Source of the DNA: a virus
Lineage: Duplodnaviria; Caudoviricetes
Length of the DNA stretch: 59,066 bases
Virus record (IMG/VR): IMGVR_UViG_3300037751_000266
Span: 1-59,066 of that record
Reading direction: 5' to 3' (one strand)
The notes below the pieces were generated by a model that did not search any database, was not told the DNA's origin, and was given only the letters and a program-made list of their open reading frames with translations. A program made the translations under genes and the position numbers. Of the stretch, positions 2,254-57,367 are shown piece after piece. Each line of letters starts with the position of its first letter. Within the stretch, counting starts at the first letter, position 1.

Positions 2254-2254
2254 T

Positions 2255-5200: not shown

Positions 5201-5734
5201 ATTGGTGGGATCAAATCATACGATGGATCGAATAATATTCAATCCGAGATAGATAGATACCCGGGCTCAGAGTATTTTTTAATTCTCTACGGCACAAACG
5301 ATGCAACTAACACTTTGTTCTCTCCACCTGGGAACACCTGCACCGAGGCTAATTTTTTAGCGGGTCTTGTCGAGTGTGACGGAACGTACAAGGCGTATAT
5401 GCGGGACATAGTCATGACCTTGAAAGATGCCGGTAAGTTCCCATTGCTGGCACTTGTGCCTTACAACAAAACGGCAACTTCGACCGAACTAACCCGGATT
5501 CAGAATTACAACGCTGCAATTGCCCAGCTGATCAACGAACACAACCTGTTAACCGATGCACCGGATTTATATAGCCACTTCGAAACCAATCAAGACCAGT
5601 TGATAGACAACGTGCATCCTAACGGAATCGGTTATCAATCGGTGGCGAATAAATGGTACGAAGAATTAACGAACTACTGGACCGGAGTTTTTGAGCCGAA
5701 TCGGGCAAGTGTTATTCACGCAACAATACATTGA
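2255..5734 (+). CDS. Secreted multidomain protein: LamG-like, Ig-like (Big_5), Cys-rich repeats, glycan-binding-like domain, C-terminal SGNH/GDSL hydrolase
   Basis: Likely start ATG 2255 just after the upstream stop; signal peptide MINIISIIFIILIHCTAFA; SGNH blocks IGDSIT, GIGG, YGTND, DNVHPN; Big_5-like STNPVDGATGI...ISF...VKDTSGNPM. Confidence 0.8.
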   Translation: MINIISIIFIILIHCTAFAATPTISDWNQTTGVISGSNFGTRSDNGGDQSYLPKWWDNFEDGNLTGWSFNLTGSSYSVVNDSSRVGSSKSMLKNNTVPTDGGHIKVVAKPYYYSSFWMKTTTGSLLNNNKYFRMGTTQASQNVVMNSNSNNTSKVQMTIEYAVDGNAVNYGTQSPASLTTWKFVEVIIDNVGNKVQFYFDGVLKNEILNRLTGDEFSKSPYLGYGYWYSTTYGIGNGWYFDNTYIDYTPARVMLCTGSPFTSRGQCEMQIPTSWGSGSITAQPNKGIFPSGSSAYLYVVNDNGEYSDGKLVTVGSGGSEAQSVQSTNPVDGATGITPNSTNSISFAKNVDCSTAADITISHGTRSITCSGAVATLTTSGQPTGTDITVTVPATVKDTSGNPMDAPVSFTYTTSVPSATCDTDNSLCPSEDTCVAAWPEYSWCPYELPACKPSACTDSCDVDHLSMCTESECLSIDLTYYEGACRDAAQDPLVTGPNLITNPNLTLWATETPNMPTGWTSYKGQNVRRDPLGVRLWDGGHILQANKLEANTKYFYAYNYLKGTSTAEVSWYDSKALSYTTGTKTGVFTTGPAPLPDHGIYFYAKAAPDLYLNDFVLKNVNDVDCTNDFSLCQTPTTCEVAGYYYWDNGCQGVAPSILNETFADGDATGWSTVNQSTPGTPSWSVVNQQYKQANDLKGFDQSYHLGSYAYWTAGTAWDDYRVWATITPIDSPARDTAGLMFRYTDQNNYYRLSLSRVQGFYRLEKKVDGVFSTIAVTGRGPLLESQEVGVEVNGSNIIIEVNGQPLFSTIDTSLTTGTIALYNMGPATFDNIAVEVVDTLPKVVLSSPIDYQVLTGNTITASAVVNNLPENGYIVFSLDGVAGDPITAAPFTEEFASLSDGDHTILVSLYVDEENIESSDNRTFATGGISIVAIGDSITNGTFDDISADNISSNNRNISRGFTPILTGWLETNLNKPAMIYNSGIGGIKSYDGSNNIQSEIDRYPGSEYFLILYGTNDATNTLFSPPGNTCTEANFLAGLVECDGTYKAYMRDIVMTLKDAGKFPLLALVPYNKTATSTELTRIQNYNAAIAQLINEHNLLTDAPDLYSHFETNQDQLIDNVHPNGIGYQSVANKWYEELTNYWTGVFEPNRASVIHATIH

Positions 5735-5738
5735 GTAT

Positions 5739-6125
5739 ATGAAAAAAATAACAGCGATCATCATAATTGTTTTTCTGTTCGGTTGTTCTCCCTCCCAGAA
5801 GGCACCTGTTGATGAGGCTCAGATAACAGCCCTTGAACAAGATTACGCAGTTGCCCTATGGAAAGCGAGTAAAGCAAAAACAGATGAATGCACAAGCCCT
5901 TTTAAGTGGATTGCCTACACGTTTATCCCAGATAAAAACTGGTCTGATTGTTGTTGGCAGCATGACTTCGATTATCACTATGGGTATTTGTACAACATAT
6001 CAAGAGAGCAGGCCGATTACGAACTATGGGAGTGCGTTGACTCAGGCGGTAATCCTGTTGTCGCAAGGGTGATCTATACGGGCGTTAAAATAGGCGGCGG
6101 TTTTTATTACGAAAACGGAGAGTAA
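5739..6125 (+). CDS. Lipoprotein with phospholipase A2-like motif
   Basis: MKKITAIIIIVFLFGC lipobox; DCCWQHDFDY (CCxxHDxxY) plus ADYELWECV, the His-Asp pattern of PLA2-like proteins. Confidence 0.65.
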   Translation: MKKITAIIIIVFLFGCSPSQKAPVDEAQITALEQDYAVALWKASKAKTDECTSPFKWIAYTFIPDKNWSDCCWQHDFDYHYGYLYNISREQADYELWECVDSGGNPVVARVIYTGVKIGGGFYYENGE

Positions 6126-6126
6126 A

Positions 6127-6309
6127 ATGGCAAACATCAATCAGCAAGTCAGGTCAAAAACGAATCAGGCATTGGTAATTACCGGGGCTATCCTTTCTGT
6201 TTTACCCGCATTCGGAATAGACATCGGGGAAGAGGCAACGGCAGGTATTATGACAATCATTGGTATCATAATGAGGCAGGTCACCAAAGAACCTCTTTCC
6301 GACAAATAA
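6127..6309 (+). CDS. Putative holin
   Basis: 60 aa, two hydrophobic segments, charged C-terminus, upstream of the endolysin candidate. Confidence 0.6.
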   Translation: MANINQQVRSKTNQALVITGAILSVLPAFGIDIGEEATAGIMTIIGIIMRQVTKEPLSDK

Positions 6310-6320
6310 GGATAAAATTA

Positions 6321-6671
6321 ATGCAAGAGTTTATCGCAAGAATATTCATCGATCATTGGGAGAAAGTCGGAGTTGTAACCCTTATTACCATTGTCTCATG
6401 GGTAACAAGGATGGATTTTCGAATCACAGCCCTGGAAAAAAAACCGCCATGTCCAACGCTCGATGATTGTTCCGGGAAAATGCTTGCAGCCGAAAAAATC
6501 AACCAAGGTAGGTTCTCTTCAGGGGTTAGGGAATTTGACAGCTTGGCAATAGCAATTCGAGAAACGAACAAAATATTAGAGGTGCGTTTTTCTGACATCG
6601 ATCAGAAATACGACAGGATCATCAATCATCTCTTGGAGATAAAAAAAAATGAATCCAGTAGAAAGAACTGA
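6321..6671 (+). CDS. Single-TM coiled-coil protein (holin/antiholin-like)
   Basis: N-terminal TM segment VGVVTLITIVSWV followed by heptad-like helix; lysis-region position. Confidence 0.45.
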   Translation: MQEFIARIFIDHWEKVGVVTLITIVSWVTRMDFRITALEKKPPCPTLDDCSGKMLAAEKINQGRFSSGVREFDSLAIAIRETNKILEVRFSDIDQKYDRIINHLLEIKKNESSRKN

Positions 6672-31656: not shown

Positions 31657-31970
31657 CCATGCCAACAAGACCAAGACCAAAACGAGGAATGTTGCGGGAT
31701 GAGCCGAGGTTGCGGTATCGGGTTGAGTACACGCAAGGTTATTGTAATTCGCACGGTCAGCCAGTACCCCATGATTTTTATTTCAACCCTCACTACTCTT
31801 TTCCAACAACTATTGAAAAGAAAATCCTTCAAGAGCGCATCAACGGAATATGGGTTGATGTGGTATAGGTGACAATATGGAAGAGTTTATTATATCCATT
31901 ATCATACTTTTTGTTTTATTAATGTGAGCAAGCTGATCTAGTGCAGGATGCGCTGAAAATAGAAAAATCA

Positions 31971-32056
31971 GGACAGGTTCCATAATGGTATTGGAAACGA
32001 CTGCTAATCGTTCGAGGGTAACACCTTTCCGAGTTCGAATCTCGGCCTGTCCGCCA
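31971..32056 (+). tRNA. tRNA-Ser(GCT)
   Basis: GGACAGG/CCTGTCC acceptor, G discriminator, CCA; AACGA-CTGCTAA-TCGTT; long variable arm; CCGAG-TTCGAAT-CTCGG. Confidence 0.95.
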
Positions 32057-32090
32057 AAAAAACTAAGCAAGCAAATTGTTAGATAAAAAG

Positions 32091-32119
32091 TTGTGCAACA
32101 TCTCAAAACGTGATATAAT
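32091..32119 (+). promoter_or_regulatory. Sigma70 promoter with extended -10
   Basis: TTGTGC-N17-TATAAT with TGn. Confidence 0.7.
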
Positions 32120-32136
32120 AAGTAAAATTATAATTT

Positions 32137-32169
32137 TTCGTCCTGTTCTATCAGGGCGTGGATTGAAAC
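32137..32169 (+). CRISPR. Solitary type I-C-like CRISPR repeat (no array, no cas genes)
   Basis: TTCGTCCTGTTCTATCAGGGCGTGGATTGAAAC: 7-bp hairpin CGTCCTG/CAGGGCG followed by TGGATTGAAAC, the type I-C 3' handle. Confidence 0.8.
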
Positions 32170-32179
32170 AGGAGCAACA

Positions 32180-32500
32180 ATGGCAAAAAACATCGTCAAT
32201 TTTGTTCAACCCCCATCGTTTAGGCAGCTTTCACTCGAAAGGGCCAAGTCGAATCGCATTGCAGAAATCACCGAAAAGGCGCGGAGACTCCGTGTAATTC
32301 AGGAAGTTGTTGATAAATTCGAACAGGTAGACGTTCACGAAGAGGAAGTTGTTCTCAACGACGGTCGCAGGGCTGTGTTGTTTTCTGTGCGTGATACGAA
32401 AGACGATGGGCTGTTTGTGCTAAAAGACGAACTGGACTCCGGCGCGATTACCCGGAAACAGATTTGTGACCAATTGCTCGGACTGTCATGCCAGAATTAG
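32180..32500 (+). CDS. Hypothetical protein directly downstream of the solitary repeat
   Basis: RBS AGGAG abuts the repeat end; 106 aa. Confidence 0.75.
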   Translation: MAKNIVNFVQPPSFRQLSLERAKSNRIAEITEKARRLRVIQEVVDKFEQVDVHEEEVVLNDGRRAVLFSVRDTKDDGLFVLKDELDSGAITRKQICDQLLGLSCQN

Positions 32501-32613
32501 TCAAAGACTATCAGCCGATAGCTAAACCGGCAATCCCGGCCAGGAAAATGCAAGAGATATTGTATCGGGTGTTGAAGATGCTGGTTGACCTGTTAGCCAA
32601 GGAGCTTAAGTAA
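32488..32613 (+). CDS. Small ORF (41 aa)
   Basis: Overlaps upstream stop; MPELVKDYQPIAK... Confidence 0.45.
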   Translation: MPELVKDYQPIAKPAIPARKMQEILYRVLKMLVDLLAKELK

Positions 32614-32614
32614 A

Positions 32615-32779
32615 ATGAAAAACTGGCAAAAAGCAATAGCATCAATGACCACAACCGAGCAAGGCAAGTTTTCTAAAAGCGTATCAAAGATAAGGAAACC
32701 GGCTATTGACATAATCACCGATACAGAATGTTATCTGGTTGATAAGGAATTGGTTAAGGGTTATTTAAAGAAGTTTTAG
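32615..32779 (+). CDS. Small ORF (54 aa)
   Basis: RBS AAGGAG, start adjacent to upstream stop; MKNWQKAIASMTT... Confidence 0.5.
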   Translation: MKNWQKAIASMTTTEQGKFSKSVSKIRKPAIDIITDTECYLVDKELVKGYLKKF

Positions 32780-33522: not shown

Positions 33523-34080
33523 GTGAGGGCCCTAACACCAAAACAACAGATGTTCGTATCGGAATATTTAATCGACTTAAATGCGACACAAGCCGCGATA
33601 AGAGCCGGTTATTCTCAAAAGACATCTGGGTGGATTGGCCCACAGCTACTCGCTAAAAGTCACATTGCAAAATCCATAGCTGATAAAATGGAACGGCGAT
33701 CTGTCGCGGTAGGGGTAGATGCCAATTACGTTCTAAAGCGCCTGACTGAGATAGACGAGATGGATGTAATAGACATCCTCGACAGCCGCGGCTCATTTAA
33801 GCCGATAGCCGGCTGGCCTAAGATATGGCGGCAGTTTATTTCAGGTATCGACGTTGCTGAAATGTGGGAAGGTCAGGGTGATGATAGAAAACTCGCTGGC
33901 CTTCTCAAGAAAATCAAGTGGCCGGATAAAATAAAGAACCTTGAGCTCATTGGCAAACACGTTGCAGTCCAGGCGTTTAAAGATCAGGTAGCGCACAGTG
34001 GAGCGATCGAGATAACCGAATCCATCAAAGACGTTCTTTCCAGGGTTGAAGATCAAACATGGGGCCTGCCGAATGACTGA
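33523..34080 (+). CDS. terS: Terminase small subunit
   Basis: LTPKQQMFVSEYLIDLNATQAAIRAGYS...KKIKWPDKIKNLELIGKH. Confidence 0.95.
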   Translation: MRALTPKQQMFVSEYLIDLNATQAAIRAGYSQKTSGWIGPQLLAKSHIAKSIADKMERRSVAVGVDANYVLKRLTEIDEMDVIDILDSRGSFKPIAGWPKIWRQFISGIDVAEMWEGQGDDRKLAGLLKKIKWPDKIKNLELIGKHVAVQAFKDQVAHSGAIEITESIKDVLSRVEDQTWGLPND

Positions 34081-35623
34081 GTTTGACCCCGGCTTAATGG
34101 TTGACCTCGAAAAGAAGCTGCTCGACCGTGAGTGGCGAATGGACAACCTGTATTACATAAAAGATAAGTTTGGTAATAAGATCAGGTTCGTGCGTAATGA
34201 ATCACAGATGATGTTCTGGCGGTCAATGTGGTACTACAACATCATTTTAAAAGACCGCCGCCGTGGTTTTTCTACTCTCTGTGCTATCTTTATTTTAGAC
34301 TCATGTCTGTTTAACTCCAATATCAACGCCGGTATTATCGATATATCTCTCGTTGATGCACAAAAGAAACTTGACAAAATATCCTTCGCTTACGTCAACC
34401 TACCAACATTCTTAACATCTGTCAGGACCACAGAAACAGACTCCAAAACAGAGTTGAAGTTTAACAACGGATCGTCTGTATATGTCGGGACTTCACATCG
34501 TGGCGATACTCTGCAAATCCTGTTTATTTCCGAATACGGCAAGATATCGGTCCGTTTCCCTGAAAGGGCCAGAGAGATAAAAACTGGTGGCCTCCCCACT
34601 GTCCACCCCGGCAACTTCATTATCATGGAATCCACGGCAGAAGGAAATAGCGGGGAGTTCTTTGATTTTTGCAAAAGGTCAAGAGACTTGATAGACAGAA
34701 ATCAACTGCTAACCAAACTTGACTTTAAGTTCCATTTTTTTGGATGGTGGGAAGGCAGCGAGAACGAACTGGAACCGGAAGGTGTAGAAATATCCAAGGA
34801 AGCACAAGAGTATTTAGTAGCCTTAGAGAAAGAGCTAGGGCGAAAGCTGTCTGCCCGTAAGTGGGCATGGTATTCAAAGACCTTTGACACTCAGGGAGAT
34901 GATATGGGTCGAGAGTATCCAGGCACTCCGGACGAAGCCTTTGCCGCCGCAGTTGAGGGTGTTTATTTAGCCAAAATCCTGCGCAAGATGAAAAAACGCG
35001 GTCAGATCGTGTCCATCCCCCCCGATCCTGGCATTCCGGTTAATACCGGTTGGGACTTTGGCTTGTCCGATCACATGACAATATGGCTGCATCAAAGAGT
35101 GAATTTTCAAGATAGACTGATTGGCTACATAAGCGGCACAGACGAAGACATCTATTACTATTGGCGAGAGCTACAAAAGCTCGATCACATATATGGCTAT
35201 CACTTTCTTCCGCATGATGGTGAAACCAGGCGTATAGGCACAGCGAAAAGCGCAGAAGAAAAACCAAAAACAATAGAAAAACTGTTGAGCGAAGCAGGGA
35301 TGAAAAACATCAAGATAGTCCCAAGGATATCCGAAAAATGGGTTGCTATCCAAGAGGTCAAAAGGTGGCTACCCCAAGTGTTTATAGACCCGGTACAGTG
35401 CAAAGATGGGCTAAATTGTCTCGAAAACTTCCGGCACGAATACGACGAAAACATGGGAAAATTCAAAGATACGCCGCGCCATGACTATGCCATGCACGGC
35501 TACGACGGACTTGAAACACTGGCGAGAGGGTTGAACGCTCATGGTGTTATCACCGATGTTCCTTTTCAGGCTCAGATACAAGTGCCTTTCTCAATGCCGT
35601 ATGATACGGGGGCTGGATACTGA
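34073..35623 (+). CDS. terL: Terminase large subunit
   Basis: ILKDRRRGFST Walker A region, LFISEYG Walker B, MESTAEG, WDFGLSD nuclease, LPHD, PRHD..HGYD. Confidence 0.95.
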   Translation: MTEFDPGLMVDLEKKLLDREWRMDNLYYIKDKFGNKIRFVRNESQMMFWRSMWYYNIILKDRRRGFSTLCAIFILDSCLFNSNINAGIIDISLVDAQKKLDKISFAYVNLPTFLTSVRTTETDSKTELKFNNGSSVYVGTSHRGDTLQILFISEYGKISVRFPERAREIKTGGLPTVHPGNFIIMESTAEGNSGEFFDFCKRSRDLIDRNQLLTKLDFKFHFFGWWEGSENELEPEGVEISKEAQEYLVALEKELGRKLSARKWAWYSKTFDTQGDDMGREYPGTPDEAFAAAVEGVYLAKILRKMKKRGQIVSIPPDPGIPVNTGWDFGLSDHMTIWLHQRVNFQDRLIGYISGTDEDIYYYWRELQKLDHIYGYHFLPHDGETRRIGTAKSAEEKPKTIEKLLSEAGMKNIKIVPRISEKWVAIQEVKRWLPQVFIDPVQCKDGLNCLENFRHEYDENMGKFKDTPRHDYAMHGYDGLETLARGLNAHGVITDVPFQAQIQVPFSMPYDTGAGY

Positions 35624-47864: not shown

Positions 47865-48590
47865 ATGGAAGGGATACTCAGAACAGTATTAGGCGGTGTT
47901 GCCGGTGGAGCTCAAGCAAACCTTACCGAGTTACAGAAAGAAGCCGACCTCAAACGACAGAAGTCTTTCGCAGCGCTGATGCAGCAATACGGGCGTGAAA
48001 ATATGGAGTTCGGGAACAAGCTCGCAACAGATCGTGACGCTACCAACCGAAAAAATGCCAAAGAGGATGACTTCGAAAGCTATATTCGAAAACGCTCTGC
48101 TGATGCGTCAGACTACGATAAACAAACCAAGGATAAAAGGCTTGACGCTGACACCCAATACGGAAGAGAGAAAGGACTTCTCGGGATGAAAATGTCCCAC
48201 GAAAGCGCCTTAACAGACAAAGAAATACAAGCGAAAAAGGAATTGTATAAATTAGAAGGTTTGGCAAAACCTGAAATAAAACCAGGCACAGCCTTAAAGG
48301 AAATTTCCACAATAGACACACAGATAGGAAACATCAGAAAAGGCAATATGCTAACTGAAGATGGGATGAGTGACATCCTCGAAAAAATGCCTGAACTGGC
48401 ACCGTTTATCAACACTAAGGCTGAAATGTCACCGGAAGATAAAGAAAAAGTAATAAGAAGCTTAACGAAGTATAGAAACTATCTTTCTAGGTTTATTCCT
48501 TACGAAAATAGTGGTATAATATCAAACGAAGATGAAGATTCTGATGTAGACGATATTGAGTTAGACATTAATTCCCTCCTTGGTGAGTGA
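47865..48590 (+). CDS. Putative ejection protein
   Basis: N-terminal LGGVAGG then charged helix; precedes giant gene. Confidence 0.6.
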   Translation: MEGILRTVLGGVAGGAQANLTELQKEADLKRQKSFAALMQQYGRENMEFGNKLATDRDATNRKNAKEDDFESYIRKRSADASDYDKQTKDKRLDADTQYGREKGLLGMKMSHESALTDKEIQAKKELYKLEGLAKPEIKPGTALKEISTIDTQIGNIRKGNMLTEDGMSDILEKMPELAPFINTKAEMSPEDKEKVIRSLTKYRNYLSRFIPYENSGIISNEDEDSDVDDIELDINSLLGE

Positions 48591-51500
48591 TGCGCTTAGA
48601 TAAAATCAGGCAACATCCTAAGTTTCAGTCTTTGAATCCTGAAGATCAAGCGACGGTTATTAAGAATTTCATCAATCGAGAATGGTCGAAATACGAAACT
48701 CACAAGTCTTATGCTTCATTGCCTGACGAGGACAAAGAAAAAGTTAGGTCAGGCTTTATGTCCCGTTTTTACGGTGACGCTCTCAAAGAACAACCTTTCG
48801 TTGACGCAAAACAGCCCAATCCGATGTTCGAAGGATTGACCCCGGCTGGTTCTCCGCAAAGCGTTCATGCTCCTGTTGAATATCCCGAAGATCCAGAAAG
48901 AGAAGGCAAGATAAATCGCACGTGGGGCGAAGCGGCCAAAGACACGGCAATTGATGCAGCCAACAGCGTAATTGGTTTAGGTGAGGCTGGTGTCGGTATT
49001 GCCGATATGGCTTCTTTTAACCTGGCTGGGAAAGGTTTGTCCAAAATTGGATACGATCCTGCACAAACTAAAGGCATATTGGCTCAAGGTTATTCGGACA
49101 GCCGTAAGCAAGCCAACAAAGAAGTATCAGAAGCCAAAGGTTTTCTTGGCACAGTTGACGCTCTGCTCGATAATCCCTCCGTAGCCTTTGGTGCCATAGT
49201 CGAATCATCCGCTCTCACCGCTTCAGGTGCAGCAATAGCCAGATACGCCGCAGTTAAACTACTCGGTTCGGCTCTTGCGAAAAACGGCATTACCGCCGGA
49301 TCAGCCGCAGCTAAAGACTTCGCCGCTAAATTCTTTTTAAATCCATCAGTACAATCAAAGATAGTCATGGCTGGGGCTGGCGCAGAGGGTGCACAGACCG
49401 CCGGACTAATTCAAGAACAGGGCCGACAGGCGGGAAGAGATTGGAGTGACACTATTCTCCCAGCAATGGGCGCAGGTGCAACGACCGCTGCGATAGGTGG
49501 GCTTACCTCGAAAATCCCCGGCTTACGTGATGCCGAAGCTTCTCTTGCCACTGCCGGACTCGGCGGACGTATTGCCGCTAAACAAGCCGTTCCTAATATT
49601 CTTAAAGGTACGGTCAAGGAAGGTCTTGAAGAAACTCTCCAGTCAGGCCAGGAAAACGCCTTAACCAACGTGGCTTTGGGCAGACCATGGCGCGAAGGAA
49701 ATGCCGAAGCCGCCGGAATGGGCCTCGTTGTCGGCGCAGGACAGGGCGGGGCTATGATGACCGGCTCAAGCATGCTGAACCTGAAGCGAGCCGTATCAGC
49801 CGATATTCTCCAATCAAAAAACGTTGATGAGGCTATATCTAAATTCCAACAGGGCACAGGGATACTCCAAGGAGCGCAGAATGATATTCTTCAAAAAGGT
49901 GGAAATCCGAATATTACCGAAGCCGAAACCCCAATTAACCTTGAAAGAGCAACGGGACTTTTATCATCAAGAACTGAGGTCGCTATACCTCAGAAGAATG
50001 AAGGAAATGCAGAACGTGTCAATGATTTACCAGCCGGAGAATCACCGCTAAGCATTATCCCGAGTGAGAATAAAACCTACGATAAAATTGTTCTACCCGC
50101 AGTTGAGCCAAATCCGAGCCAAATTGAGCCAATAGCCGAGCCAATACAAGGAGAACCAAATGATCCTGTTCAAAATATTGGAGATCAAATTACTCCACGG
50201 AAAACCGAGACACCTTCAGGAGAGGTCGAAGTTAGACCGACGGAGACAGAACAGGATACAAATAATGGACAGCAAGGGGGAGTGGCAAGAACCGACAGAA
50301 TCGTTACAGAAAGTTCTAATGGGAATAGACGAGAGTTTGAGTCAGAACAGGTCGAAAATGAATCAACAACTTCATTAGATGGCAAAACTGATACGAAAAC
50401 AGGACAAAACAGCGTTGAAAATAGATCGACAATCGATTTTCAACCAACCACCGACACCGGAGCAAGCGAAGCAGTTAAGCCGGAAGATGATACCTCAACC
50501 ACAGACAATAGACAAGTCGATGCCGGATTTCCTAATGAAGATATTAGGATTCAAGATAGTGCAGAAATAAAAGGAGGTGGTCAAATATCTCCTGTAGAAC
50601 CGACAGGTAAATTGGTCCAAGAGTCTATCCCCGACAAGGAAGAAAGCACCAATCAAGACATCACGGCGCAGGGAACACCTCCGGAAGCCTCTGGAATAGC
50701 TCCGACGACCGAAGCGACAGCAAGCGCACCGTCCGGAGGTGTTGTTGAAATAGCCAAACAAGTAGAAAAATCGCTCAAATATGACGGAACGAATTTAAGT
50801 TTACATCAATTCACCGCATATGACGGACCGGCAAAAGGTGCGACGTTCAGTGTCAAAAACCCGACACAGGAAGAAATACAGGCAGGATATGATAAGGTCG
50901 TTAAGGCTTTTACCAAGCCAACGGTTAAATCAGTCCGTCAAGAGATAACCAAACTCAACGCACAAATTAAAAACAAGCCTACTGCCGGGTTAAAGGCTGA
51001 ACTTGCCGATGCAAAAACAAGGCTGACCGAACTTAAAAAGTCTGAATATGCCGCGAAGCAAAACGCCGTAACTCAGTCAACCATGCCGGAATATGCCAAA
51101 AGAGCGGGAATAAAAACCGCAGCACAAGCAAATAAAAAAGGCATATCAAGATTTATCCCAGAAGCTAAGGTCATTGCCGACCAGATAACTGAAGATATAG
51201 CAATGTGGATACCGGGAGAAAAGCCAGAGGTATCAGAAAGACTTGCTGAAGAAATGCTTCGCCAGACAATGCTTGAAGGTGGGCGGGACTTGGCTATCCG
51301 CTCTCTGGCTATCCGTTACGAGAAAGATTCCAAGGGCGCTGACAGCAACATTAAGCGCATGAACGGCAAGATTGCTAAAGCGCTTAGGGATTATGGAAGC
51401 AAGAGACAATCTGAAAGAGATGAACTTAACAAACCGGCAGCACCTCAACGCAACACGCTCACATCAAAACAACAAAAGATATTCGACCAACTACAAGAGT

Positions 51501-54500
51501 CAGGTGCAATCAAACTCATAAGCCGGAGTGAGGTCGAAGATATTCTCCTTGCCGCTGGCGTTGATCCGAAGCAAGTGAAGTATTCAGTAAGAACAAAACC
51601 AGCACCTAAAAAAACAATCAAGGCCTATAAGCTCTTCAAGGTAAAAAAGGGACAACCTGGTAAATTATTCGCACTTTTTGTTGACGCAAACACGCCTATT
51701 GATATAGGCGTGTGGCTCGATGCAGAAGCCGGAGAACTGACCGACAAAGGTAAAGTTAAGTCAAAACTTGGGCCTCTCGCTTATCGCCCCGGTTGGCACG
51801 GTGGAGATATGCCGGTAGCAACCCACATAGGGTCGGGTGGGACAACTCCAACAACAAGGCCAAAAGACCAAGTATGGGCAGAAGTGGAGTTCCCTGCTGA
51901 TGTTGATTGGCAAAAAGAAGCCAATAGCAGGGCGAGAATTAGCAAGAAAGGTAAACCTGTCTTAAATACGGCACATATAACCGACCAAGTACCCGAAGAT
52001 GGTCACTATAGATATAAAACCAACTCCAACATGACAGGCTCATGGATTATTGCTGGTTCAATGAAGGTTAACAGAATCCTTTCTGATAATGAGGTTTCTG
52101 CAATAAACGAGAAAGATGGGGTTAGTGATCTTAAAAGAGACGAGCCATTTGATTTTGAGGGGTATGGTTTCGATGTCAAATATTCAAAAGATGGCAAAAA
52201 GATAGAAGGGTTTACCCTACCGGACGGCACGGTCTACCTGATAAAAGAAAACATCAAAGATTTATGGCCTGTTATTCGTCACGAAATAGCCATTCACAGC
52301 AGAAAATTATTACTTGCCGACAAGGAGTTTGCCGGACTGCTTGAATCTCTCAAAGCAAGGCAGAACGACGAATCAGCCACGGGTGAAGCAATCCGCGCGG
52401 CCATGGCAAAAGTACCAAGTGATACCAACTCCGAGCATTACCTTGAAGAAACACTTGGGTATATGGTCACAGATGCGCCTGAAGTTGGAATGGTTAGGCG
52501 GTTTATTGCCATGATTAAAAAGGCCATGGTGTCGCTTGGATTTGATCCTTCGTTGTTTACGATAAGCGATATTTCAGCCTTGGCCGATTCTGTTTTAATG
52601 GGCAAACGTGGCCGGATTGAATCGCTTACACCGAACATTTCAGGCAGCGACACAGCCAAAATCCAAAAGATCAAGCAATCCCGCCCACACATAGACGAGA
52701 TTGAGTTTGATACCATATCGGCTGCAATTCTATCGGACAACATAAAGGACATCCCTCTAACCCGCACGGCCATGGCTGTTCTATCGGACATGGTAAGCGA
52801 AGGTCTTGCCAGCAACGAACTATTAGGAAAGTTCGATTCCGCAAAAGTAAAGGCCGACTTCAATGAATCAGCCAGAAAACTGGTAAAAAAGCGCACCGAT
52901 AAAGAACTGGAGGATATTGAAGTTGCCGACCTTGAACTACTGGAAGACCTCACCGACTTCGTAAAAGAATACGGGCCGAAGAAAGTCAAAGACGCTATAG
53001 CCAAGGAAGAAAAGAAGCTCGAAGAACTGGCGAAACCTAAACTTATCAGCAGTCACAAGAATTACACCTTGTCTGAATCCATTGTCGGGACAAAATGGAA
53101 AGTATCAAAGAATAGTCCAGCCCCTTGGAATCCGACCGATAAAATCCACATTGTAGCCATAGACGAAACAGACGGTCCGAAAAAGAAAAAGGTCGAAAAC
53201 GTTCAACGGGTGGTAGAAGCGGCAGTCCCGCGAATATCCGAAGACGTAAAGGCGGTTCGATTTATTCTTCCAGACGGAACCGAATACACCGTATTGAACA
53301 ACAAAACCGCGCTTCGTTCGTTTAAGAAACTGGTCAGTAAGATTTACACCCCTGTGCCGAAAGTGCGTAAAGGTTCTACCTCGGTCAACCAGACCAACAA
53401 GGCGAAGAAGACTTTCGATTGGGGCGAGAAAACCATTGCTCACGGCGAGTGGGTAAGTGACGGAACAATGATTGTTAAAGGGTTTACCCCACCGACACGA
53501 CCGACACAAGAACTGAACAACGTTGACACCTTGCTTGTTTCTTATCAGCAAATGGCTGAAAAGGCCAATCCAGCCGAGATACGATATTACACCAGTGGCG
53601 AAACAGATACAGTGGTAGCCAAAGAGCCTGTCTTGCAAATGGGTGAGTTTAACGCACAGGCTATCATCATGGACAGCATAACCAATAAACGGTTCAATGT
53701 GTCGCAGGGTAAACTGAATATAGTCGAATCAATCTATCCTGATGTTGAATACCGGATATCTCCTGACGGTGTGGTGTTCGGATACAACGAAGGTGAATTT
53801 ATCGCCGCGGTAATGCCAATGCAAGGCAAGCCAGTGAACGCCGATAAAGCCAAAAGCTACGGCCTTTATTCCATGGGCGAGTTTGCCGACACTCCGGTTA
53901 TTATGGAAATGCCTGAATTGGTCGAACTGGCTACCGAGTTGATGAATGGCAACCGTCCTCAACTGGTAGACAAATTCCGCAAGTCAGGGGTAAAAGGTCA
54001 GTTCATGCCATCCGGACCGGGCGGGATTAAAATTCTTAAAGAACTCGGTGCAGACTTTCACCAGGCATTAAAGACCATGGCCCACGAAATAGGCCATTTG
54101 ATCGACTACAAAGACGCTGACACCATGTCGCGGGGTAATATCCTTGGACGGATAGCTTCTTTGAAAAAGTACATGAAGCATTACCTCGAAGAAAAGCCCG
54201 GATCGCCGGGAGTTATCACCGAAGCAGACCGCAAACGGTTAATGAAAGAAGCACGACTGTTAACCAAACGCGAAGCCAGTGAGTTAATCGACGAGGTTAT
54301 CACCACAGAAACGCCGGTTACGCCGGAACAGGTCCTTGCTGTATTGAAAGGAATGGAAACCGACCCGGAACCGACCGCCGATGTAATAAGTTTTATTTTC
54401 ACCGCGTCGACCGCTGTGAAAAAATCTATCGGACTACAGGCGATGAAGGGGCTTTCTCCCGAAGAAATGGCCCACCTCAAGACCTACATCGAGGTTAAGA

Positions 54501-57367
54501 CCGGCAGCAAGATCGAACAGCCCAGCCCGACCAACAAAGATGTTTATGAAAAGTTTAAGAAACTGGTCAAAGAAGAGATCGCCAAAAGAAATCTTATTTC
54601 CAAAGAAGTTATTACCGAAGAACTGAAACTGTTTACCCAACTATGGAAGCCGTTTAACGTTTGGGGCAACGCCAAATATACCAAGTATCGGTTTTCATCT
54701 GAAGAACTTTATGCCGATGCACTTTCTGGGATCTTGGTTAATCCGCAAATGGTCCAGCGGGTGGCGCCTGAGTTCTACAAAGGATTTTTCAATTACATCG
54801 ACAACAAACCGGAAGCGTCAGAGATATGGGGCGAGATTGCCAAACGGATAGGGCGTGGACCGGTTGAAGTTTCTAGAGCCAGGATTAAGCGTGATTATGA
54901 AATGTTCAAAAGGGGTGAGGATATTCGCGCAGAACTAGCAAAGGGAGAAGAGAGCCAGGGATTCTTTGACACGTTGGCCTTGACTTTGAGCGACAAAAAT
55001 CATTTTCTAAACAAGGCATTACGTCAGAGTGCCGATAAGGACAAGGCAGCAGCGGTAATCAACGAACAGAAAGAGCTTGATTATATCCCATCAGAGGTAG
55101 ATGCATATCTGTTTGAGATAAATAAAACCATCCAAAAAGAACTTGACGACAATAACCTGACAGTCCATGACCTCGACGTAGTGGCTATGAGGAAGCATAT
55201 CATAGCCAACAGGGAAGGTATGCTTTCAACAGAAGGGTACGGATCAAAGACCTCAACCGATGACCTTAAAATATTAAAAGATGATTGGGGAGAAGAAAAA
55301 TACAACAAGGTCGAAGAGTTACTCAATAAGTTCAGAGCAATCAGGGATAAACGGATTTACCCGTTGATGGAAGAATCCGGCTTATATTCTGAAGAATTCG
55401 CTAAGTATATGAATGAGACGGTTGATTACACCAAGGTCTCAGTTAACCATCATTTAAACAAGAAATTCGGTGAAGGTGCAGGCGGCCGAGTTTACAAGGC
55501 GCTTGGCACTTTGTCTGAAGTAAACTCACCGGTAACGGCAACTATTTTGCAAGACATCTCACTTATCAGGGCAGCACGGATAAACAAATCCAAACGATCT
55601 ATATTACCCCTGTTGCAAGAAGTCGGATCACTCAAACCGGCTAAAGGGACGTTTAACGGCAAGTTTATGGTGGCAGCAGAACCGGATGAAGCCAACGAGC
55701 GCATTTTTTCGGTGATGATAAATGGTAATATGGAAAATTATTATGTTTCAAAGAATATCGCCGAGGCCTATGAGTTCGACCCATACACCGCCAATCAGGT
55801 TATGGAGGCGTGGAATTTCGTTGCATCAGGGACCAGACAATTGTTTATCTCCAAAAACCCGGTATGGATGGCGAGAAACCCTGTCCGTGATTTCAAGGGG
55901 ACGGTGACGAAAAACAAAGAGATAGGCTTACGTCACATGCCATTCTTGGCATGGGCATATGCCAAGTCTGTTCCGGAAGCGTTTCAGGACGCATGGAAGG
56001 TAAAGCGAAGTGAAACCATCGATTGGTTGATGACCAACAGGGCGTTAGCGGAAGACAGGATTTATGACGGTCGCGACCTTAGCATGGACACTGAACTTGA
56101 CCGGCTGCAAACGAGATTCAAACTTTCAACCAAATCAAATCAAGAGGCCTCTAAATTTCAAAACGTTTGGGCGAAGTGGGTAATCCGGAACTTTAGCTGG
56201 CAGGGCATAAACAGAAACGCCGACAACGCAGGACGTGCAATGGAAATATTGAGCAAGATAGCAGGGGCTAAATATTTATTGCAGCGCGGAGTGCCAAAAC
56301 AAGAAGTACTAAACAAGGTTAGAAATGGACTGATAGGAACCCCCAACTGGAAAGAAAAAGGAACATTACATTCTATCACAAATTCTATCTTCATGTTTTC
56401 AAACATTGCGGTACAGGGACTAAAATCACACATAGCTGCGGCAAAAGCCAACCCTGGAGATTATATCTGGAAAAACATTGCTCTGAATGTTGTGCCAACT
56501 GTCATAATGTTCTTTGCGGCAAAGGGTTTTTTTGATGATGAGGAAGATGATGGGACAATAACCGGAGGTGGCCCCATAAAAAGGATTATGGCCGGAGTGC
56601 CAGAATATAATTTAGCGCACTACAGCTGTACTCCTTTGTTCCTTACCAAGGATAATCAAAGTGTTTGGTTACAAGCGCCAAGGGATTATGAGGGGCAGGT
56701 TCTCGGTGCCGTTACATGGAAAATGCTAAACGGTAATTTTACAGGTAAAGGGTCTGCCTTATCTGAACTGTATAACGTTTTCCCATACAAAATTCACCCT
56801 ATAATCAACTCAGCGCTGTATTTGAAAGACGTTTATATTTCGGGCATAAACCAAGTTGACGACTACATGGGCCGCAACAAAAACAGCGACGAAGCTATGG
56901 ATGTGGGCGGGTGGATGTTGGCAAAAGAGGTAGCAAAAAACATCTGGCGCGATACAGGCGGCGGCACTTTATATAAACCGGAATACGACGACATAAAAAG
57001 AGATCGGTCCACAGCCGAGATGGTTTTGAATTTGTGGGGTGTGAATGCAATCGGTGCATATATCCAGATTTCAGATAGAGGAGTTTCCGAAAAAGTATTT
57101 AAAAAGTATCGAGAATTAGACCTGCAAGCAACCAAACAGAATGTCGCAATCAATAAATCTCTATCTAAAATGTCACAGGACGAAAAGATGATTATGGCAG
57201 AGATTGCCCCGAAACTAAAAGACCGGATTGTCAAACAGGGGCTACTTGCGAAAAACACAGCCTTTACAAGAGGTCTTGCCGGTGCAACTTCACAAGAGAA
57301 ATTAGCAATTTTTATGCAAGAAATGGCAGGCGATATGAAGAGGAAAAAGAATGACAACATCGAATGA
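48587..57367 (+). CDS. Giant polyvalent virion/ejection protein (2926 aa) with zincin-like motifs
   Basis: Ala/Gly-rich N-terminus, acidic linker, KAYKLF...YRPGWH...QVWAEVE domain, RHEIAIH, AHEIGH + EELYAD, LPD38-like C-terminus. Confidence 0.8.
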   Translation: MMRLDKIRQHPKFQSLNPEDQATVIKNFINREWSKYETHKSYASLPDEDKEKVRSGFMSRFYGDALKEQPFVDAKQPNPMFEGLTPAGSPQSVHAPVEYPEDPEREGKINRTWGEAAKDTAIDAANSVIGLGEAGVGIADMASFNLAGKGLSKIGYDPAQTKGILAQGYSDSRKQANKEVSEAKGFLGTVDALLDNPSVAFGAIVESSALTASGAAIARYAAVKLLGSALAKNGITAGSAAAKDFAAKFFLNPSVQSKIVMAGAGAEGAQTAGLIQEQGRQAGRDWSDTILPAMGAGATTAAIGGLTSKIPGLRDAEASLATAGLGGRIAAKQAVPNILKGTVKEGLEETLQSGQENALTNVALGRPWREGNAEAAGMGLVVGAGQGGAMMTGSSMLNLKRAVSADILQSKNVDEAISKFQQGTGILQGAQNDILQKGGNPNITEAETPINLERATGLLSSRTEVAIPQKNEGNAERVNDLPAGESPLSIIPSENKTYDKIVLPAVEPNPSQIEPIAEPIQGEPNDPVQNIGDQITPRKTETPSGEVEVRPTETEQDTNNGQQGGVARTDRIVTESSNGNRREFESEQVENESTTSLDGKTDTKTGQNSVENRSTIDFQPTTDTGASEAVKPEDDTSTTDNRQVDAGFPNEDIRIQDSAEIKGGGQISPVEPTGKLVQESIPDKEESTNQDITAQGTPPEASGIAPTTEATASAPSGGVVEIAKQVEKSLKYDGTNLSLHQFTAYDGPAKGATFSVKNPTQEEIQAGYDKVVKAFTKPTVKSVRQEITKLNAQIKNKPTAGLKAELADAKTRLTELKKSEYAAKQNAVTQSTMPEYAKRAGIKTAAQANKKGISRFIPEAKVIADQITEDIAMWIPGEKPEVSERLAEEMLRQTMLEGGRDLAIRSLAIRYEKDSKGADSNIKRMNGKIAKALRDYGSKRQSERDELNKPAAPQRNTLTSKQQKIFDQLQESGAIKLISRSEVEDILLAAGVDPKQVKYSVRTKPAPKKTIKAYKLFKVKKGQPGKLFALFVDANTPIDIGVWLDAEAGELTDKGKVKSKLGPLAYRPGWHGGDMPVATHIGSGGTTPTTRPKDQVWAEVEFPADVDWQKEANSRARISKKGKPVLNTAHITDQVPEDGHYRYKTNSNMTGSWIIAGSMKVNRILSDNEVSAINEKDGVSDLKRDEPFDFEGYGFDVKYSKDGKKIEGFTLPDGTVYLIKENIKDLWPVIRHEIAIHSRKLLLADKEFAGLLESLKARQNDESATGEAIRAAMAKVPSDTNSEHYLEETLGYMVTDAPEVGMVRRFIAMIKKAMVSLGFDPSLFTISDISALADSVLMGKRGRIESLTPNISGSDTAKIQKIKQSRPHIDEIEFDTISAAILSDNIKDIPLTRTAMAVLSDMVSEGLASNELLGKFDSAKVKADFNESARKLVKKRTDKELEDIEVADLELLEDLTDFVKEYGPKKVKDAIAKEEKKLEELAKPKLISSHKNYTLSESIVGTKWKVSKNSPAPWNPTDKIHIVAIDETDGPKKKKVENVQRVVEAAVPRISEDVKAVRFILPDGTEYTVLNNKTALRSFKKLVSKIYTPVPKVRKGSTSVNQTNKAKKTFDWGEKTIAHGEWVSDGTMIVKGFTPPTRPTQELNNVDTLLVSYQQMAEKANPAEIRYYTSGETDTVVAKEPVLQMGEFNAQAIIMDSITNKRFNVSQGKLNIVESIYPDVEYRISPDGVVFGYNEGEFIAAVMPMQGKPVNADKAKSYGLYSMGEFADTPVIMEMPELVELATELMNGNRPQLVDKFRKSGVKGQFMPSGPGGIKILKELGADFHQALKTMAHEIGHLIDYKDADTMSRGNILGRIASLKKYMKHYLEEKPGSPGVITEADRKRLMKEARLLTKREASELIDEVITTETPVTPEQVLAVLKGMETDPEPTADVISFIFTASTAVKKSIGLQAMKGLSPEEMAHLKTYIEVKTGSKIEQPSPTNKDVYEKFKKLVKEEIAKRNLISKEVITEELKLFTQLWKPFNVWGNAKYTKYRFSSEELYADALSGILVNPQMVQRVAPEFYKGFFNYIDNKPEASEIWGEIAKRIGRGPVEVSRARIKRDYEMFKRGEDIRAELAKGEESQGFFDTLALTLSDKNHFLNKALRQSADKDKAAAVINEQKELDYIPSEVDAYLFEINKTIQKELDDNNLTVHDLDVVAMRKHIIANREGMLSTEGYGSKTSTDDLKILKDDWGEEKYNKVEELLNKFRAIRDKRIYPLMEESGLYSEEFAKYMNETVDYTKVSVNHHLNKKFGEGAGGRVYKALGTLSEVNSPVTATILQDISLIRAARINKSKRSILPLLQEVGSLKPAKGTFNGKFMVAAEPDEANERIFSVMINGNMENYYVSKNIAEAYEFDPYTANQVMEAWNFVASGTRQLFISKNPVWMARNPVRDFKGTVTKNKEIGLRHMPFLAWAYAKSVPEAFQDAWKVKRSETIDWLMTNRALAEDRIYDGRDLSMDTELDRLQTRFKLSTKSNQEASKFQNVWAKWVIRNFSWQGINRNADNAGRAMEILSKIAGAKYLLQRGVPKQEVLNKVRNGLIGTPNWKEKGTLHSITNSIFMFSNIAVQGLKSHIAAAKANPGDYIWKNIALNVVPTVIMFFAAKGFFDDEEDDGTITGGGPIKRIMAGVPEYNLAHYSCTPLFLTKDNQSVWLQAPRDYEGQVLGAVTWKMLNGNFTGKGSALSELYNVFPYKIHPIINSALYLKDVYISGINQVDDYMGRNKNSDEAMDVGGWMLAKEVAKNIWRDTGGGTLYKPEYDDIKRDRSTAEMVLNLWGVNAIGAYIQISDRGVSEKVFKKYRELDLQATKQNVAINKSLSKMSQDEKMIMAEIAPKLKDRIVKQGLLAKNTAFTRGLAGATSQEKLAIFMQEMAGDMKRKKNDNIE

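What the first reader, a model, noticed from the sequence alone, without database searches (positions are those of the whole stretch)
32091..32200. Solitary type I-C CRISPR repeat forming the 5' UTR of a phage operon (Racr-like or Cas-sensing leader)
Seen: a promoter (TTGTGC-N17-TATAAT, extended -10), then one repeat TTCGTCCTGTTCTATCAGGGCGTGGATTGAAAC with an intact 7-bp hairpin, then directly AGGAG-CAACA-ATG. I found no second repeat and no cas gene. Known: type I-C repeats end in GGCGTGGATTGAAAC; Cas5d cuts at the hairpin base and leaves a UGGAUUGAAAC handle; solitary repeats in phages can act as RNA anti-CRISPRs (Racrs). Inference: the RNA decoys host Cas5d/Cas7. Because the pseudo-spacer is the RBS and start of ORF 32180, Cas processing or loading could also control that ORF, coupling its expression to the presence of a host I-C system.
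Basis: partly seen in the sequence, partly recalled or inferred. Interest (0 to 1): 0.88.

Follow-up and report, generated by a model that had tools for sequence, protein, structure and literature searches.

The report
Lone CRISPR repeat leading a phage mRNA
An uncultured 59-kb phage carries one copy of a type I-C CRISPR repeat right behind a promoter and right in front of a small gene, most likely an RNA decoy against host CRISPR proteins, which is a kind of element described in 2023.

Summary
A 33-nt sequence at 32137-32169 (+) has the anatomy of a type I-C CRISPR repeat: a 7-bp stem, a 6-nt loop and the 11-nt tail UGGAUUGAAAC. It is the only such copy in a 98%-complete virus record that has no I-C cas genes. 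It lies behind an extended -10 promoter, and its last base sits directly against AGGAG-N5-ATG of a 106-aa ORF.

Its 3' 18-mer occurs in arrays beside I-C cas genes. Its best named BLAST match (28 of 32) is a repeat in the I-C array of Lysinibacillus plasmid pBsph. A covariance model of I-C repeats scores it 25.9 bits, within the 19-35 bits of the pBsph repeats.

In two mosaic relatives both stem arms are unchanged (14 of 14), the tail has one natural variant and the loop changed at 3 of 6 positions.

This is a solitary repeat unit, the class shown in 2023 to include RNA anti-CRISPRs (one is I-C). Function, expression and host remain untested, and the "Cas-sensing leader" idea is still speculation. 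It is a new member of a known kind.

A side finding may matter more: about 25-35 solitary I-C repeats lie inside a ~110-nt element spread over two betaproteobacterial chromosomes.

The parts
31971..32056 (+). tRNA-Ser(GCT). It marks the end of the upstream unit and is absent at this spot in the two related viral contigs.
   Evidence: ARAGORN; Rfam tRNA 52.2 bits; alignment with L039/L040.
32091..32096 (+). -35-like hexamer TTGTGC (3 of 6 to consensus; TTGTAC in the relatives).
   Evidence: Read. Not called by the promoter scan. Alignment.
32111..32119 (+). Extended -10 element (TG-n-TATAAT). The inferred transcription start is near 32126.
   Evidence: Read. Positions 32120-32136 are 17 of 17 identical in L041, and 32097-32119 are 21 of 23 identical.
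32137..32169 (+). Solitary type I-C-type CRISPR repeat (SRU): 2-nt overhang, 7-bp stem (32139-32145 / 32152-32158), 6-nt loop (32146-32151) and 11-nt tail (32159-32169).
   Evidence: searches (25.9 bits, E 1.4e-4; 28 of 32 to a pBsph I-C array repeat), 13+34 (the 18-mer lies in arrays beside I-C cas genes).
32158..32159 (+). [quoted passage not shown] Cleavage would leave the 11-nt 5' handle on the downstream RNA.
   Evidence: Inference from the geometry and from Cas5c biochemistry in PMC8524198. Not tested.
32170..32174 (+). Shine-Dalgarno AGGAG. It starts at the base after the repeat and is unpaired in the predicted fold.
32180..32500 (+). ORF of 106 aa with no known family. It is a real gene by its substitution pattern. 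The model has one long helix, three strands and two short helices.
   Evidence: Codon-position identity to L041 is 97/103/77 of 106. No Pfam or PHROG match. Eight phmmer hits, five of them ~100-aa proteins. AF2 pLDDT 74. No fold match at E<=0.001.
32488..32779 (+). Two small co-oriented ORFs (41 and 54 aa) inside the block that is conserved together with the SRU. TerS follows at 33523.
   Evidence: Block 32073-32774 is 87.7% identical to L041. TerS: Pfam Terminase_2.

Best explanation
The 33-mer is a solitary repeat unit (SRU) derived from a type I-C CRISPR repeat. It is transcribed from its own sigma-70-type promoter as the 5' leader of the mRNA for ORF 32180. In a host that carries a I-C system, Cas5c would recognise the stem base and the UGG that follows it, and would cut between 32158 and 32159. 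It would stay on the 11-nt handle, and Cas7 and Cas8c would assemble on the RNA downstream. Cas subunits would thus be tied up in guide-less, non-targeting complexes, which is the Racr-type decoy mechanism.

Shown here: the identity and anatomy of the repeat, that it is solitary, that it lies in the sense orientation behind a promoter, and that its stem and tail are conserved.

Inferred: that it is transcribed, that Cas proteins bind it, and that it inhibits immunity.
For: 1. Repeat identity.
- The 3' 18-mer occurs in arrays directly beside Cas8c/Cas7/Cas4/Cas1c (L011) and Cas5c/Cas8c/Cas7 (L025).
- It also matches the arrays of G001, which encodes Cas5c.
- A BLAST of the 33-mer against 72,556 plasmids, with no pre-selection, gave four near-full-length hits. 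All four are the same repeat in the array after cas5c-cas8c-cas7c of Lysinibacillus pBsph-type plasmids (28 of 32; same U.G wobble and 6-nt loop).
- Model R1 scores the SRU at 25.9 bits. The pBsph repeats, which were not used to build the model, score 19.4-35 bits.

2. Geometry. It has a 7-bp stem, an 11-nt 3' overhang and UGG after the cut site. These are the features Cas5c needs, while the loop and the 5' overhang are dispensable (PMC8524198).

3. SRU hallmarks. It is intergenic, directly behind a promoter, with no cas genes and no partner repeat. This matches the description in PMC10651486.

4. Conservation. In L041/L042 the block is 87.7% identical and third codon positions are 72.6% identical. 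Against that background, stem arms are 14 of 14, the tail 10 of 11 and the loop 3 of 6 identical. P(0 changes in 14) is 0.011 at the third-position rate. The tail variant (UGA) also occurs in other canonical viral I-C repeats.

5. Precedent. RacrIC1, a I-C SRU transcribed on one RNA with acrIC5, inhibits I-C interference (PMC10651486).
Against: - No host is known, so it cannot be shown that the host has a I-C system. No array with this stem was found: 34 genome loci, 1 metagenome locus and 122 spacers were checked, and 2 of 3 window thirds were compared with five candidate genomes.
- There are no expression data.
- No terminator follows the repeat, so it is not a stand-alone small RNA like RacrIF1.
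- The 5' end reads TTCGT, not the GTCGC seen in 56 of 68 distinct viral copies.
- The conservation test rests on a single pairwise comparison. At the block-wide rate it is not significant (P = 0.16 for the stem). The whole leader from the -10 element onwards is conserved too, so promoter or UTR constraint could explain it.
- The relatives' copy changes the third base of the UGG that BhaCas5c reads, and it scores only 18.6 bits.
- The SRU is absent from 45 loci around more distant TerL relatives.
Confidence: 0.55

Rival explanations
1. Cas-responsive cis-regulatory leader. Cas5c cleavage and Cas7 loading on the handle-proximal RBS and start codon change the translation or stability of the ORF 32180 mRNA. 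Expression of that gene would then report whether a I-C system is present. This can coexist with the decoy role.
For: - The handle abuts the SD, with 0 nt between them, and the ATG lies 10 nt after the repeat.
- The SD is unpaired in the predicted fold, so translation is open unless a protein binds.
- Among 56 distinct solitary viral I-C copies away from locus edges, an ORF of at least 50 aa starts within 30 nt downstream in sense for 20. The antisense control gives 9.
- Examples are portal genes at 5 and 15 nt and a sigma factor at 14 nt.
- Cas5c stays on the 5' handle (PMC8524198).
Against: - There is no direct evidence.
- The enrichment comes from a crude ORF rule on high-GC contigs and is modest.
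- In compact phage genomes any intergenic element lies near a start codon.
- The function of ORF 32180 is unknown, so there is no rationale for Cas-dependent control.
Confidence: 0.12
2. crRNA-like guide (crlRNA/Cracr-type). The SRU yields an RNA with the 11-nt handle and a pseudo-spacer. That RNA steers host Cascade to a partly matching host or phage promoter and represses it.
For: - Single-repeat I-C SRUs that give crlRNAs with an 11-nt 5' handle and a variable 3' end are reported in bioRxiv 10.1101/2024.12.27.630466 (passages).
- Viral Cracrs, including I-C ones, are reported in bioRxiv 10.1101/2024.10.29.618823 (section 7).
Against: - The pseudo-spacer is the phage's own RBS and coding start.
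- There is no second repeat.
- In the window, only one TTC-flanked site resembles the pseudo-spacer (49222-49238). It has 3 mismatches, one at seed position 4.
- Host targets cannot be searched because the host is unknown.
Confidence: 0.07
3. Relic or neutral hairpin. The repeat was picked up by recombination with a host or plasmid array. It now persists as a harmless 5' stem-loop, perhaps one that stabilises the mRNA, with no interaction with Cas proteins.
For: - It is confined to one phage lineage.
- The 5' end departs from the consensus.
- The fold can extend into a lower stem that includes part of the handle, and the relatives' G-to-A change turns a U.G pair of that stem into U-A.
- The hairpin energy is ordinary.
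Against: - The tail and both stem arms are kept while the loop drifts, which is the pattern Cas5c recognition predicts.
- The orientation is sense.
- It sits directly behind a strong -10 element.
- Solitary I-C repeats recur in many unrelated viral contigs: 77 of 109 solitary matches have an in-register stem.
- No tyrosine integrase is present that might use it as a recombination site.
Confidence: 0.18
4. Chance resemblance of an unrelated UTR hairpin to a I-C repeat.
For: - The Rfam hit is far below threshold.
- The 10-mer alone is not rare.
Against: - The 14-mer is expected 0.03 times per window, and the exact 11-mer 0.028 times.
- On top of that, an in-register 7-bp stem is present.
- The covariance model gives E 1.4e-4.
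- The nearest named match is a real I-C array repeat.
Confidence: 0.03

Closest known systems
RacrIC1 (type I-C RNA anti-CRISPR of a Bifidobacterium pseudocatenulatum prophage; PMC10651486, passages read)
   Same: It is a solitary I-C repeat mimic on a mobile element. It is transcribed on the same RNA as a neighbouring small gene, and no cas genes are present.
   Different: RacrIC1 lies 11 nt downstream of acrIC5, at the 3' end of the message. Here the repeat is the 5' leader and abuts the SD of an ORF of unknown function. The activity of RacrIC1 has been shown; here it has not.
RacrIF1 and viral SRUs in general (Faure 2019 as cited in PMC10651486; SRUFinder survey of IMG/VR3)
   Same: It is an intergenic, solitary repeat directly behind a strong promoter in a viral genome.
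   Different: RacrIF1 is a stand-alone small RNA that binds Cas6f and Cas7f. In I-C the processing enzyme (Cas5c) holds the downstream handle, so the decoy body would be the mRNA itself.
Single-repeat I-C SRUs that give regulatory crlRNAs (Nezha- and Gabija-linked; bioRxiv 10.1101/2024.12.27.630466) and viral Cracrs (bioRxiv 10.1101/2024.10.29.618823)
   Same: A I-C repeat-like unit is processed at the hairpin base to give an 11-nt handle. A single repeat can suffice.
   Different: Those units lie in or next to cas loci, or carry a pseudo-spacer that matches a promoter with a PAM. No such target was found here, and the pseudo-spacer is the start of a coding region.
Degenerate repeat at L113:6001-6033 in the I-C array of Lysinibacillus sphaericus plasmid pBsph (NC_010381.1)
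   Same: It is 28 of 32 identical, with the same TTCGT start, the same U.G wobble, a 6-nt loop and a 7-bp stem whose top pair is swapped (C-G for G-C).
   Different: It is one member of an array beside cas5c-cas8c-cas7c and ends in AAAT. Nothing shows that Lysinibacillus is the host: the phage is 45% GC and its TerL is nearest to phages of Proteobacteria at about 40% identity.

Membership tests
Type I-C CRISPR repeat (sequence and structure class) | 11-nt 3' tail UGGAUUGAAA(C/U), which becomes the crRNA 5' handle | tested here: met
   Exact at 32159-32169. The handle length comes from PMC8524198.
Type I-C CRISPR repeat (sequence and structure class) | 7-bp stem whose 3' base abuts the tail, with a short loop and a 2-nt 5' overhang | tested here: met
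   The loop is 6 nt rather than 5, and one pair is U.G. Loop identity is dispensable for Cas5c.
Type I-C CRISPR repeat (sequence and structure class) | Canonical 5' start GTCGC | tested here: not met
   The window reads TTCGT. Among 68 distinct viral solitary copies, 56 start GTCGC, 5 TTCGC and 3 GTCGT. TTCG starts also occur in real arrays (G001, L025, pBsph). The 5' end is reported as not critical for processing.
Type I-C CRISPR repeat (sequence and structure class) | The same sequence class is found in arrays next to I-C cas genes | tested here: met
   L011 and L025, G001 contig 25 and pBsph.
Solitary repeat unit (SRUFinder criteria, PMC10651486) | Intergenic, with no full or partial repeat within 100 bp | tested here: met
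   It lies between tRNA-Ser and ORF 32180. Flank alignment is at the chance level. The covariance model finds a single site.
Solitary repeat unit (SRUFinder criteria, PMC10651486) | Not linked to cas genes | tested here: met
   No Cas5c, Cas7c or Cas8c in the 98%-complete record.
Solitary repeat unit (SRUFinder criteria, PMC10651486) | BLAST bit score of at least 41.1 to a repeat in their 17,823-repeat library | tested here: inconclusive
   Their library was not available. My best named match scores 41 bits, which is right at the cut-off.
Solitary repeat unit (SRUFinder criteria, PMC10651486) | Promoter within 250 bp upstream | tested here: inconclusive
   An extended -10 element with a weak -35 is seen by eye and is conserved in the relatives. 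The consensus scan did not call it.
Racr (functional RNA anti-CRISPR) | Transcribed, and bound or processed by the cognate Cas proteins | not testable with these tools
Racr (functional RNA anti-CRISPR) | The host carries the matching CRISPR-Cas subtype | not testable with these tools
   The host was not identified.
Racr (functional RNA anti-CRISPR) | Inhibits interference | not testable with these tools
   This needs an experiment.
Cracr / crlRNA mini-array | Two repeat-like units flanking a short pseudo-spacer | tested here: not met
Cracr / crlRNA mini-array | Pseudo-spacer with PAM-proximal matches to a cas or toxin promoter | tested here: inconclusive
   No convincing TTC-flanked site exists in the phage. 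Host targets could not be searched.

The most novel reading that the evidence does not exclude
The I-C repeat may be a Cas5c-processed leader. Cleavage at 32158/32159 and Cas7 loading over the adjacent SD and ATG would make the output of ORF 32180 depend on whether the infected cell has a I-C system. This would belong to a wider, undescribed class of solitary I-C repeats fused to start codons. I saw such fusions before portal and sigma-factor genes of other phages. I also saw about 25-35 copies inside a ~110-nt multi-hairpin element that abuts start codons across two betaproteobacterial chromosomes, one of which has its own I-C system with the same repeat tail.
Probability: 0.1. Interest if true: 0.8.

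Novelty: new member of a known kind. Interest (0 to 1): 0.4.

Why it matters
If the RNA is active, it adds a I-C Racr from an uncultured, probably virulent phage. It would also show a layout not yet characterised, in which the decoy is the 5' leader of an mRNA rather than a small RNA or a 3' tail. Because I-C Cas5c holds the downstream handle, this layout puts decoy formation and translation of the next gene in competition on the same molecule. That gives a simple system for asking whether phages sense host CRISPR proteins. ORF 32180 and its roughly 100-aa relatives would become candidates for a co-expressed anti-defence protein. The value is limited because the class is known, the host is unknown and nothing has been tested.

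Tried and rejected
Host identification failed.
- The 18-mer scan of genome contigs gave 34 loci but no array with the phage's stem.
- The degenerate stem-plus-tail pattern found only the two related viral contigs. In metagenomes it found one site that looks coding and has no array.
- 122 spacers from 9 arrays gave no match to the window longer than 15 nt, apart from one 20-nt match at 90%.
- Window 1-40000 compared with genomes G001-G005 gave only a 29-nt chance hit and the tRNA-Met.
- TerL is at most 43% identical to cultured phages, which infect Alpha-, Beta- and Gammaproteobacteria.

ORF 32180 stayed unexplained.
- It has no Pfam or PHROG family.
- The 5.8-billion-protein search found one cluster.
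- phmmer gave eight hits. Two are long proteins that match only the helix region in several stretches.
- The AF2 model has pLDDT 74, and Foldseek against the PDB found nothing at E<=0.001.
- The ESM Atlas gave no usable hit.
- No locus for relative P0003 was found in viral contigs, so I could not ask whether relatives of the ORF also follow an SRU.

Other dead ends.
- Rfam gave no family at gathering score for the SRU and none for the dispersed element.
- Sequencing runs: no RNA holder was listed, and two DNA runs held only small shares that I did not lay.
- A terminator-like site inside the ORF (32361-32376) is at the chance level.
- A literature search for dispersed chromosomal CRISPR-repeat elements returned nothing relevant. 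That single word search does not show the element is unpublished.
- The supplementary tables of PMC10651486, which list the IMG/VR3 SRUs, are closed. This SRU may already be listed there.
Full report
What is there

The window is a whole IMG/VR virus record of 59,066 bases with a CheckV completeness of 98%.
- TTGTGC at 32091-32096, a 17-nt spacer, and an extended -10 element (TG-n-TATAAT) at 32111-32119.
- The 33-mer TTCGTCCTGTTCTATCAGGGCGTGGATTGAAAC at 32137-32169.
- AGGAG at 32170-32174.
- ATG at 32180, opening a 106-aa ORF.

The predicted RNA fold has a 7-bp stem (32139-32145 with 32152-32158, one U.G pair), a 6-nt loop and a free 11-nt tail. The SD is unpaired.

A tRNA-Ser(GCT) ends 35 nt before the -35 hexamer. 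TerS, TerL and portal follow from 33523. The record has helicases, a primase, Erf, a RecE-like exonuclease and NinB on the minus strand. It has no tyrosine integrase.

Is it more than chance, and is it solitary?
- The 33-mer is unique at up to 3 mismatches, and 0 of 100 shuffles gave a match.
- The 3' 14-mer is expected 0.03 times per window.
- No partner repeat lies within +-200 nt. The best local score was 12, against a null of 9.9 +- 1.6.
- I built a covariance model (R1) from 23 I-C repeats of 32 nt taken from other viral contigs and two cas-linked arrays. All 23 share the 3' end through which they were found, so the model is biased towards that end. Run over the whole window with filters off, it finds this site alone (25.9 bits, E 1.4e-4). 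The next best site scores 10 bits.
- As a control on sequence the model had not seen, the repeats of the pBsph array score 19.4-35 bits.
- I-C Cas5c, Cas7 and Cas8c profiles find nothing in the record. The Cas5c profile did find its gene in three of four bacterial genomes searched the same way.

Against over-reading:
- The hairpin's energy is ordinary (z = -1.31).
- Rfam gives only a sub-threshold CRISPR-DR9 hit.
- The promoter scan did not list the promoter, because the -35 matches only 3 of 6.

Is it type I-C?

The 18-mer that spans the 3' arm and the tail occurs in 34 loci of species-representative genomes. Eight of these loci hold arrays. In the two arrays whose flanks I examined, the neighbouring genes are Cas8c/Csd1, Cas7/Csd2, Cas4 and Cas1c (L011) and Cas5c, Cas8c and Cas7 (L025). 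All of them score above NCBIfam cut-offs.

A BLAST of the 33-mer against all PLSDB plasmids, with no pre-selection, gave only four near-full-length hits. All four are the same site in pBsph-type plasmids of Lysinibacillus sphaericus (28 of 32, E 0.02). That site is one repeat of a degenerate array directly after cas5c-cas8c-cas7c. It shares the TTCGT start, the U.G wobble and the 6-nt loop.

Published Cas5c work describes canonical I-C repeats as a 7-nt stem with 2-nt and 11-nt overhangs. [quoted passage not shown] Recognition centres on the stem base and on the U-G-G after the cut. The loop and the 5' overhang are dispensable (PMC8524198, passages). The phage copy meets each of these requirements. 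Its only departure is the 5' start: TTCGT, against GTCGC in 56 of 68 distinct viral copies.

Relatives

ORF 32180 has close relatives in only two viral contigs (94-95% amino-acid identity). These contigs are mosaic relatives of the window. Shared patches are 70-94% identical, and the TerS/TerL segment is replaced. Homology around the SRU begins just upstream of the promoter, and the tRNA is absent there.

Identity to L041 by feature:

| Feature | Identical positions |
|---|---|
| Whole block 32073-32774 | 616 of 702 (87.7%) |
| Third codon positions of the ORF | 77 of 106 |
| Stem arms | 14 of 14 |
| Tail | 10 of 11 |
| Loop | 3 of 6 |

At the third-position rate, P(0 changes in 14 stem bases) is 0.011. 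At the block-wide rate it is 0.16, while the loop then shows an excess of change (P = 0.028).

This is one comparison only. The whole leader from the -10 element onwards is also unchanged, so the signal is suggestive and no more.

The tail change (UGG to UGA) is a natural I-C variant. A scan for the 15-mer with the UGA tail found 39 viral loci. Of the 37 matches outside the two relatives, 17 have an in-register stem of 5 or more pairs, about 10 of them follow a canonical (G/A)TCGC start, and one lies in an array.

Forty-five loci around more distant TerL relatives (35-58% identity) have no SRU. The element is therefore specific to this lineage.

How common is the layout?

In all 116 there are 195 matches, and 109 of them are solitary. 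Of those, 77 have a stem of 5 or more pairs in register, and 68 of these are distinct.

Of the 68, 56 lie away from locus edges. Among these, an ORF of at least 50 aa starts within 30 nt downstream in sense for 20, against 9 for the antisense control. Within 15 nt the numbers are 14 and 6. The ORF rule is crude, so I take this as a hint.

Clear cases are portal genes at 5 and 15 nt, a sigma factor at 14 nt and a metallo-beta-lactamase-fold gene at 2 nt. A repeat placed against a start codon is therefore not unique to this phage. The gene that follows is usually an ordinary phage gene, which weakens the idea that ORF 32180 must be an Acr.

What it most likely does

Solitary repeat units behind promoters in viral genomes were shown in 2023 to act as RNA anti-CRISPRs that trap Cas subunits in aberrant complexes. 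One I-C example, RacrIC1, is co-transcribed with acrIC5 and is active on its own (PMC10651486, abstract and passages).

The present element fits that class, and I put the decoy reading at 0.55. In I-C the processing enzyme keeps the downstream handle. The RNA that Cas7 would coat here is therefore the SD and the start of ORF 32180. Decoy formation and translation would compete on each molecule. It follows from the geometry but nothing here tests it, and I put it at 0.12.

A guide-like role is possible in principle, because single-repeat I-C crlRNAs exist (bioRxiv 10.1101/2024.12.27.630466; bioRxiv 10.1101/2024.10.29.618823, section 7). I found no target for such a guide.

A relic or neutral stem-loop remains a real alternative, at 0.18.

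What could not be settled

- Host: no array with this stem and no spacer match was found. TerL is nearest to phages of Proteobacteria at about 40% identity.
- Expression: no RNA run was listed.
- ORF 32180: it is a real gene by its substitution pattern but has no known family or fold.
- Prior record: the supplements of PMC10651486 are closed, so I cannot say whether this SRU is already listed there.

Side finding

Two betaproteobacterial MAGs hold dozens of solitary copies of the I-C tail.
- G001 has 47 matches against 1 for the reversed control. About 20 of them lie in two real arrays, one of which is beside Cas5c.
- G002 has 34 matches against 0 for the control.

The solitary copies end a ~110-nt element with three hairpins (for example L101:313-424). 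In about 9 of 16 copies with a recognisable left end, the element's left end is the start codon, on the other strand, of an unrelated ORF of 100 or more codons. These ORFs look like housekeeping genes, with names recalled from their N-termini only. In several copies the right end is fused to an ATG. Rfam has no family for it. This deserves its own study.

Verdict

Identity as a I-C solitary repeat is well supported. The anti-CRISPR function is plausible but untested. It is a new member of a known kind, and I score interest at 0.4.

Noticed in passing
G001 loci L093-L111 (e.g. L101:313-424, L096:336-447); G002 loci L006, L008, L014, L035: A ~110-nt multi-hairpin element ends in a solitary type I-C repeat. 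It is spread over two betaproteobacterial MAG chromosomes: about 25 solitary copies in G001 and about 34 in G002, against 1 and 0 matches for the reversed control. G001 has its own I-C system (Cas5c on contig 25, plus two arrays) with the same 16-nt repeat tail. The element abuts start codons on both sides. In about 9 of 16 copies with a recognisable left end, that end is the ATG, on the other strand, of an unrelated ORF of 100 or more codons, and several right ends are fused to an ATG. There is no Rfam family for it.
   Followed up: partly
Viral loci L190, L143, L121, L170, L138/L181, L184: In other viral contigs, solitary I-C repeats sit 0-15 nt before the start codons of ordinary phage genes. 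These include a P22-like portal, an HK97-type portal, a sigma-70 family protein, a metallo-beta-lactamase-fold protein and a 724-aa protein of unknown family. Sense-downstream ORF starts within 30 nt number 20 of 56, against 9 of 56 for the antisense control.
   Followed up: partly
L113 (NC_010381.1, Lysinibacillus sphaericus pBsph) 1994-6600: A plasmid-borne cas5c-cas8c-cas7c lies in the 12-kb stretch with no cas3, cas1, cas2 or cas4 annotated there. It is followed by an array of four uniform repeats and then about eight increasingly degenerate ones. One of these is the closest named match to the phage repeat.
   Followed up: partly
L025:5204-5569 (Fuerstiella MAG): A six-unit array lies directly after cas5c-cas8c-cas7c. 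Every repeat differs from the others, but the stems keep pairing through changes on both sides.
   Followed up: no
window 33557-35577 versus L041:7512-9358: The TerS/TerL segment of the window has no DNA similarity in the two related contigs. The portal onwards is 94% identical (84% in L042), so the packaging module has been swapped between close relatives. The tRNA-Ser at 31971-32056 is likewise present only in the window.
   Followed up: partly
window 4270-4301 (-): A 12-nt piece of the I-C tail with a weak stem lies inside the 1202-aa ORF, on the opposite strand. The covariance model scores it 10 bits (E 2.4), which I take as chance.
   Followed up: no
window 48587-57367 (+): A single ORF of 2,926 aa lies at the end of the structural block. 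I did not examine it.
   Followed up: no
window 31878-31928 (+) and L039: A small hydrophobic ORF (MEEFI..., 16 aa) just upstream of the tRNA is conserved in the relatives. There it is followed by a hairpin instead of the tRNA.
   Followed up: no
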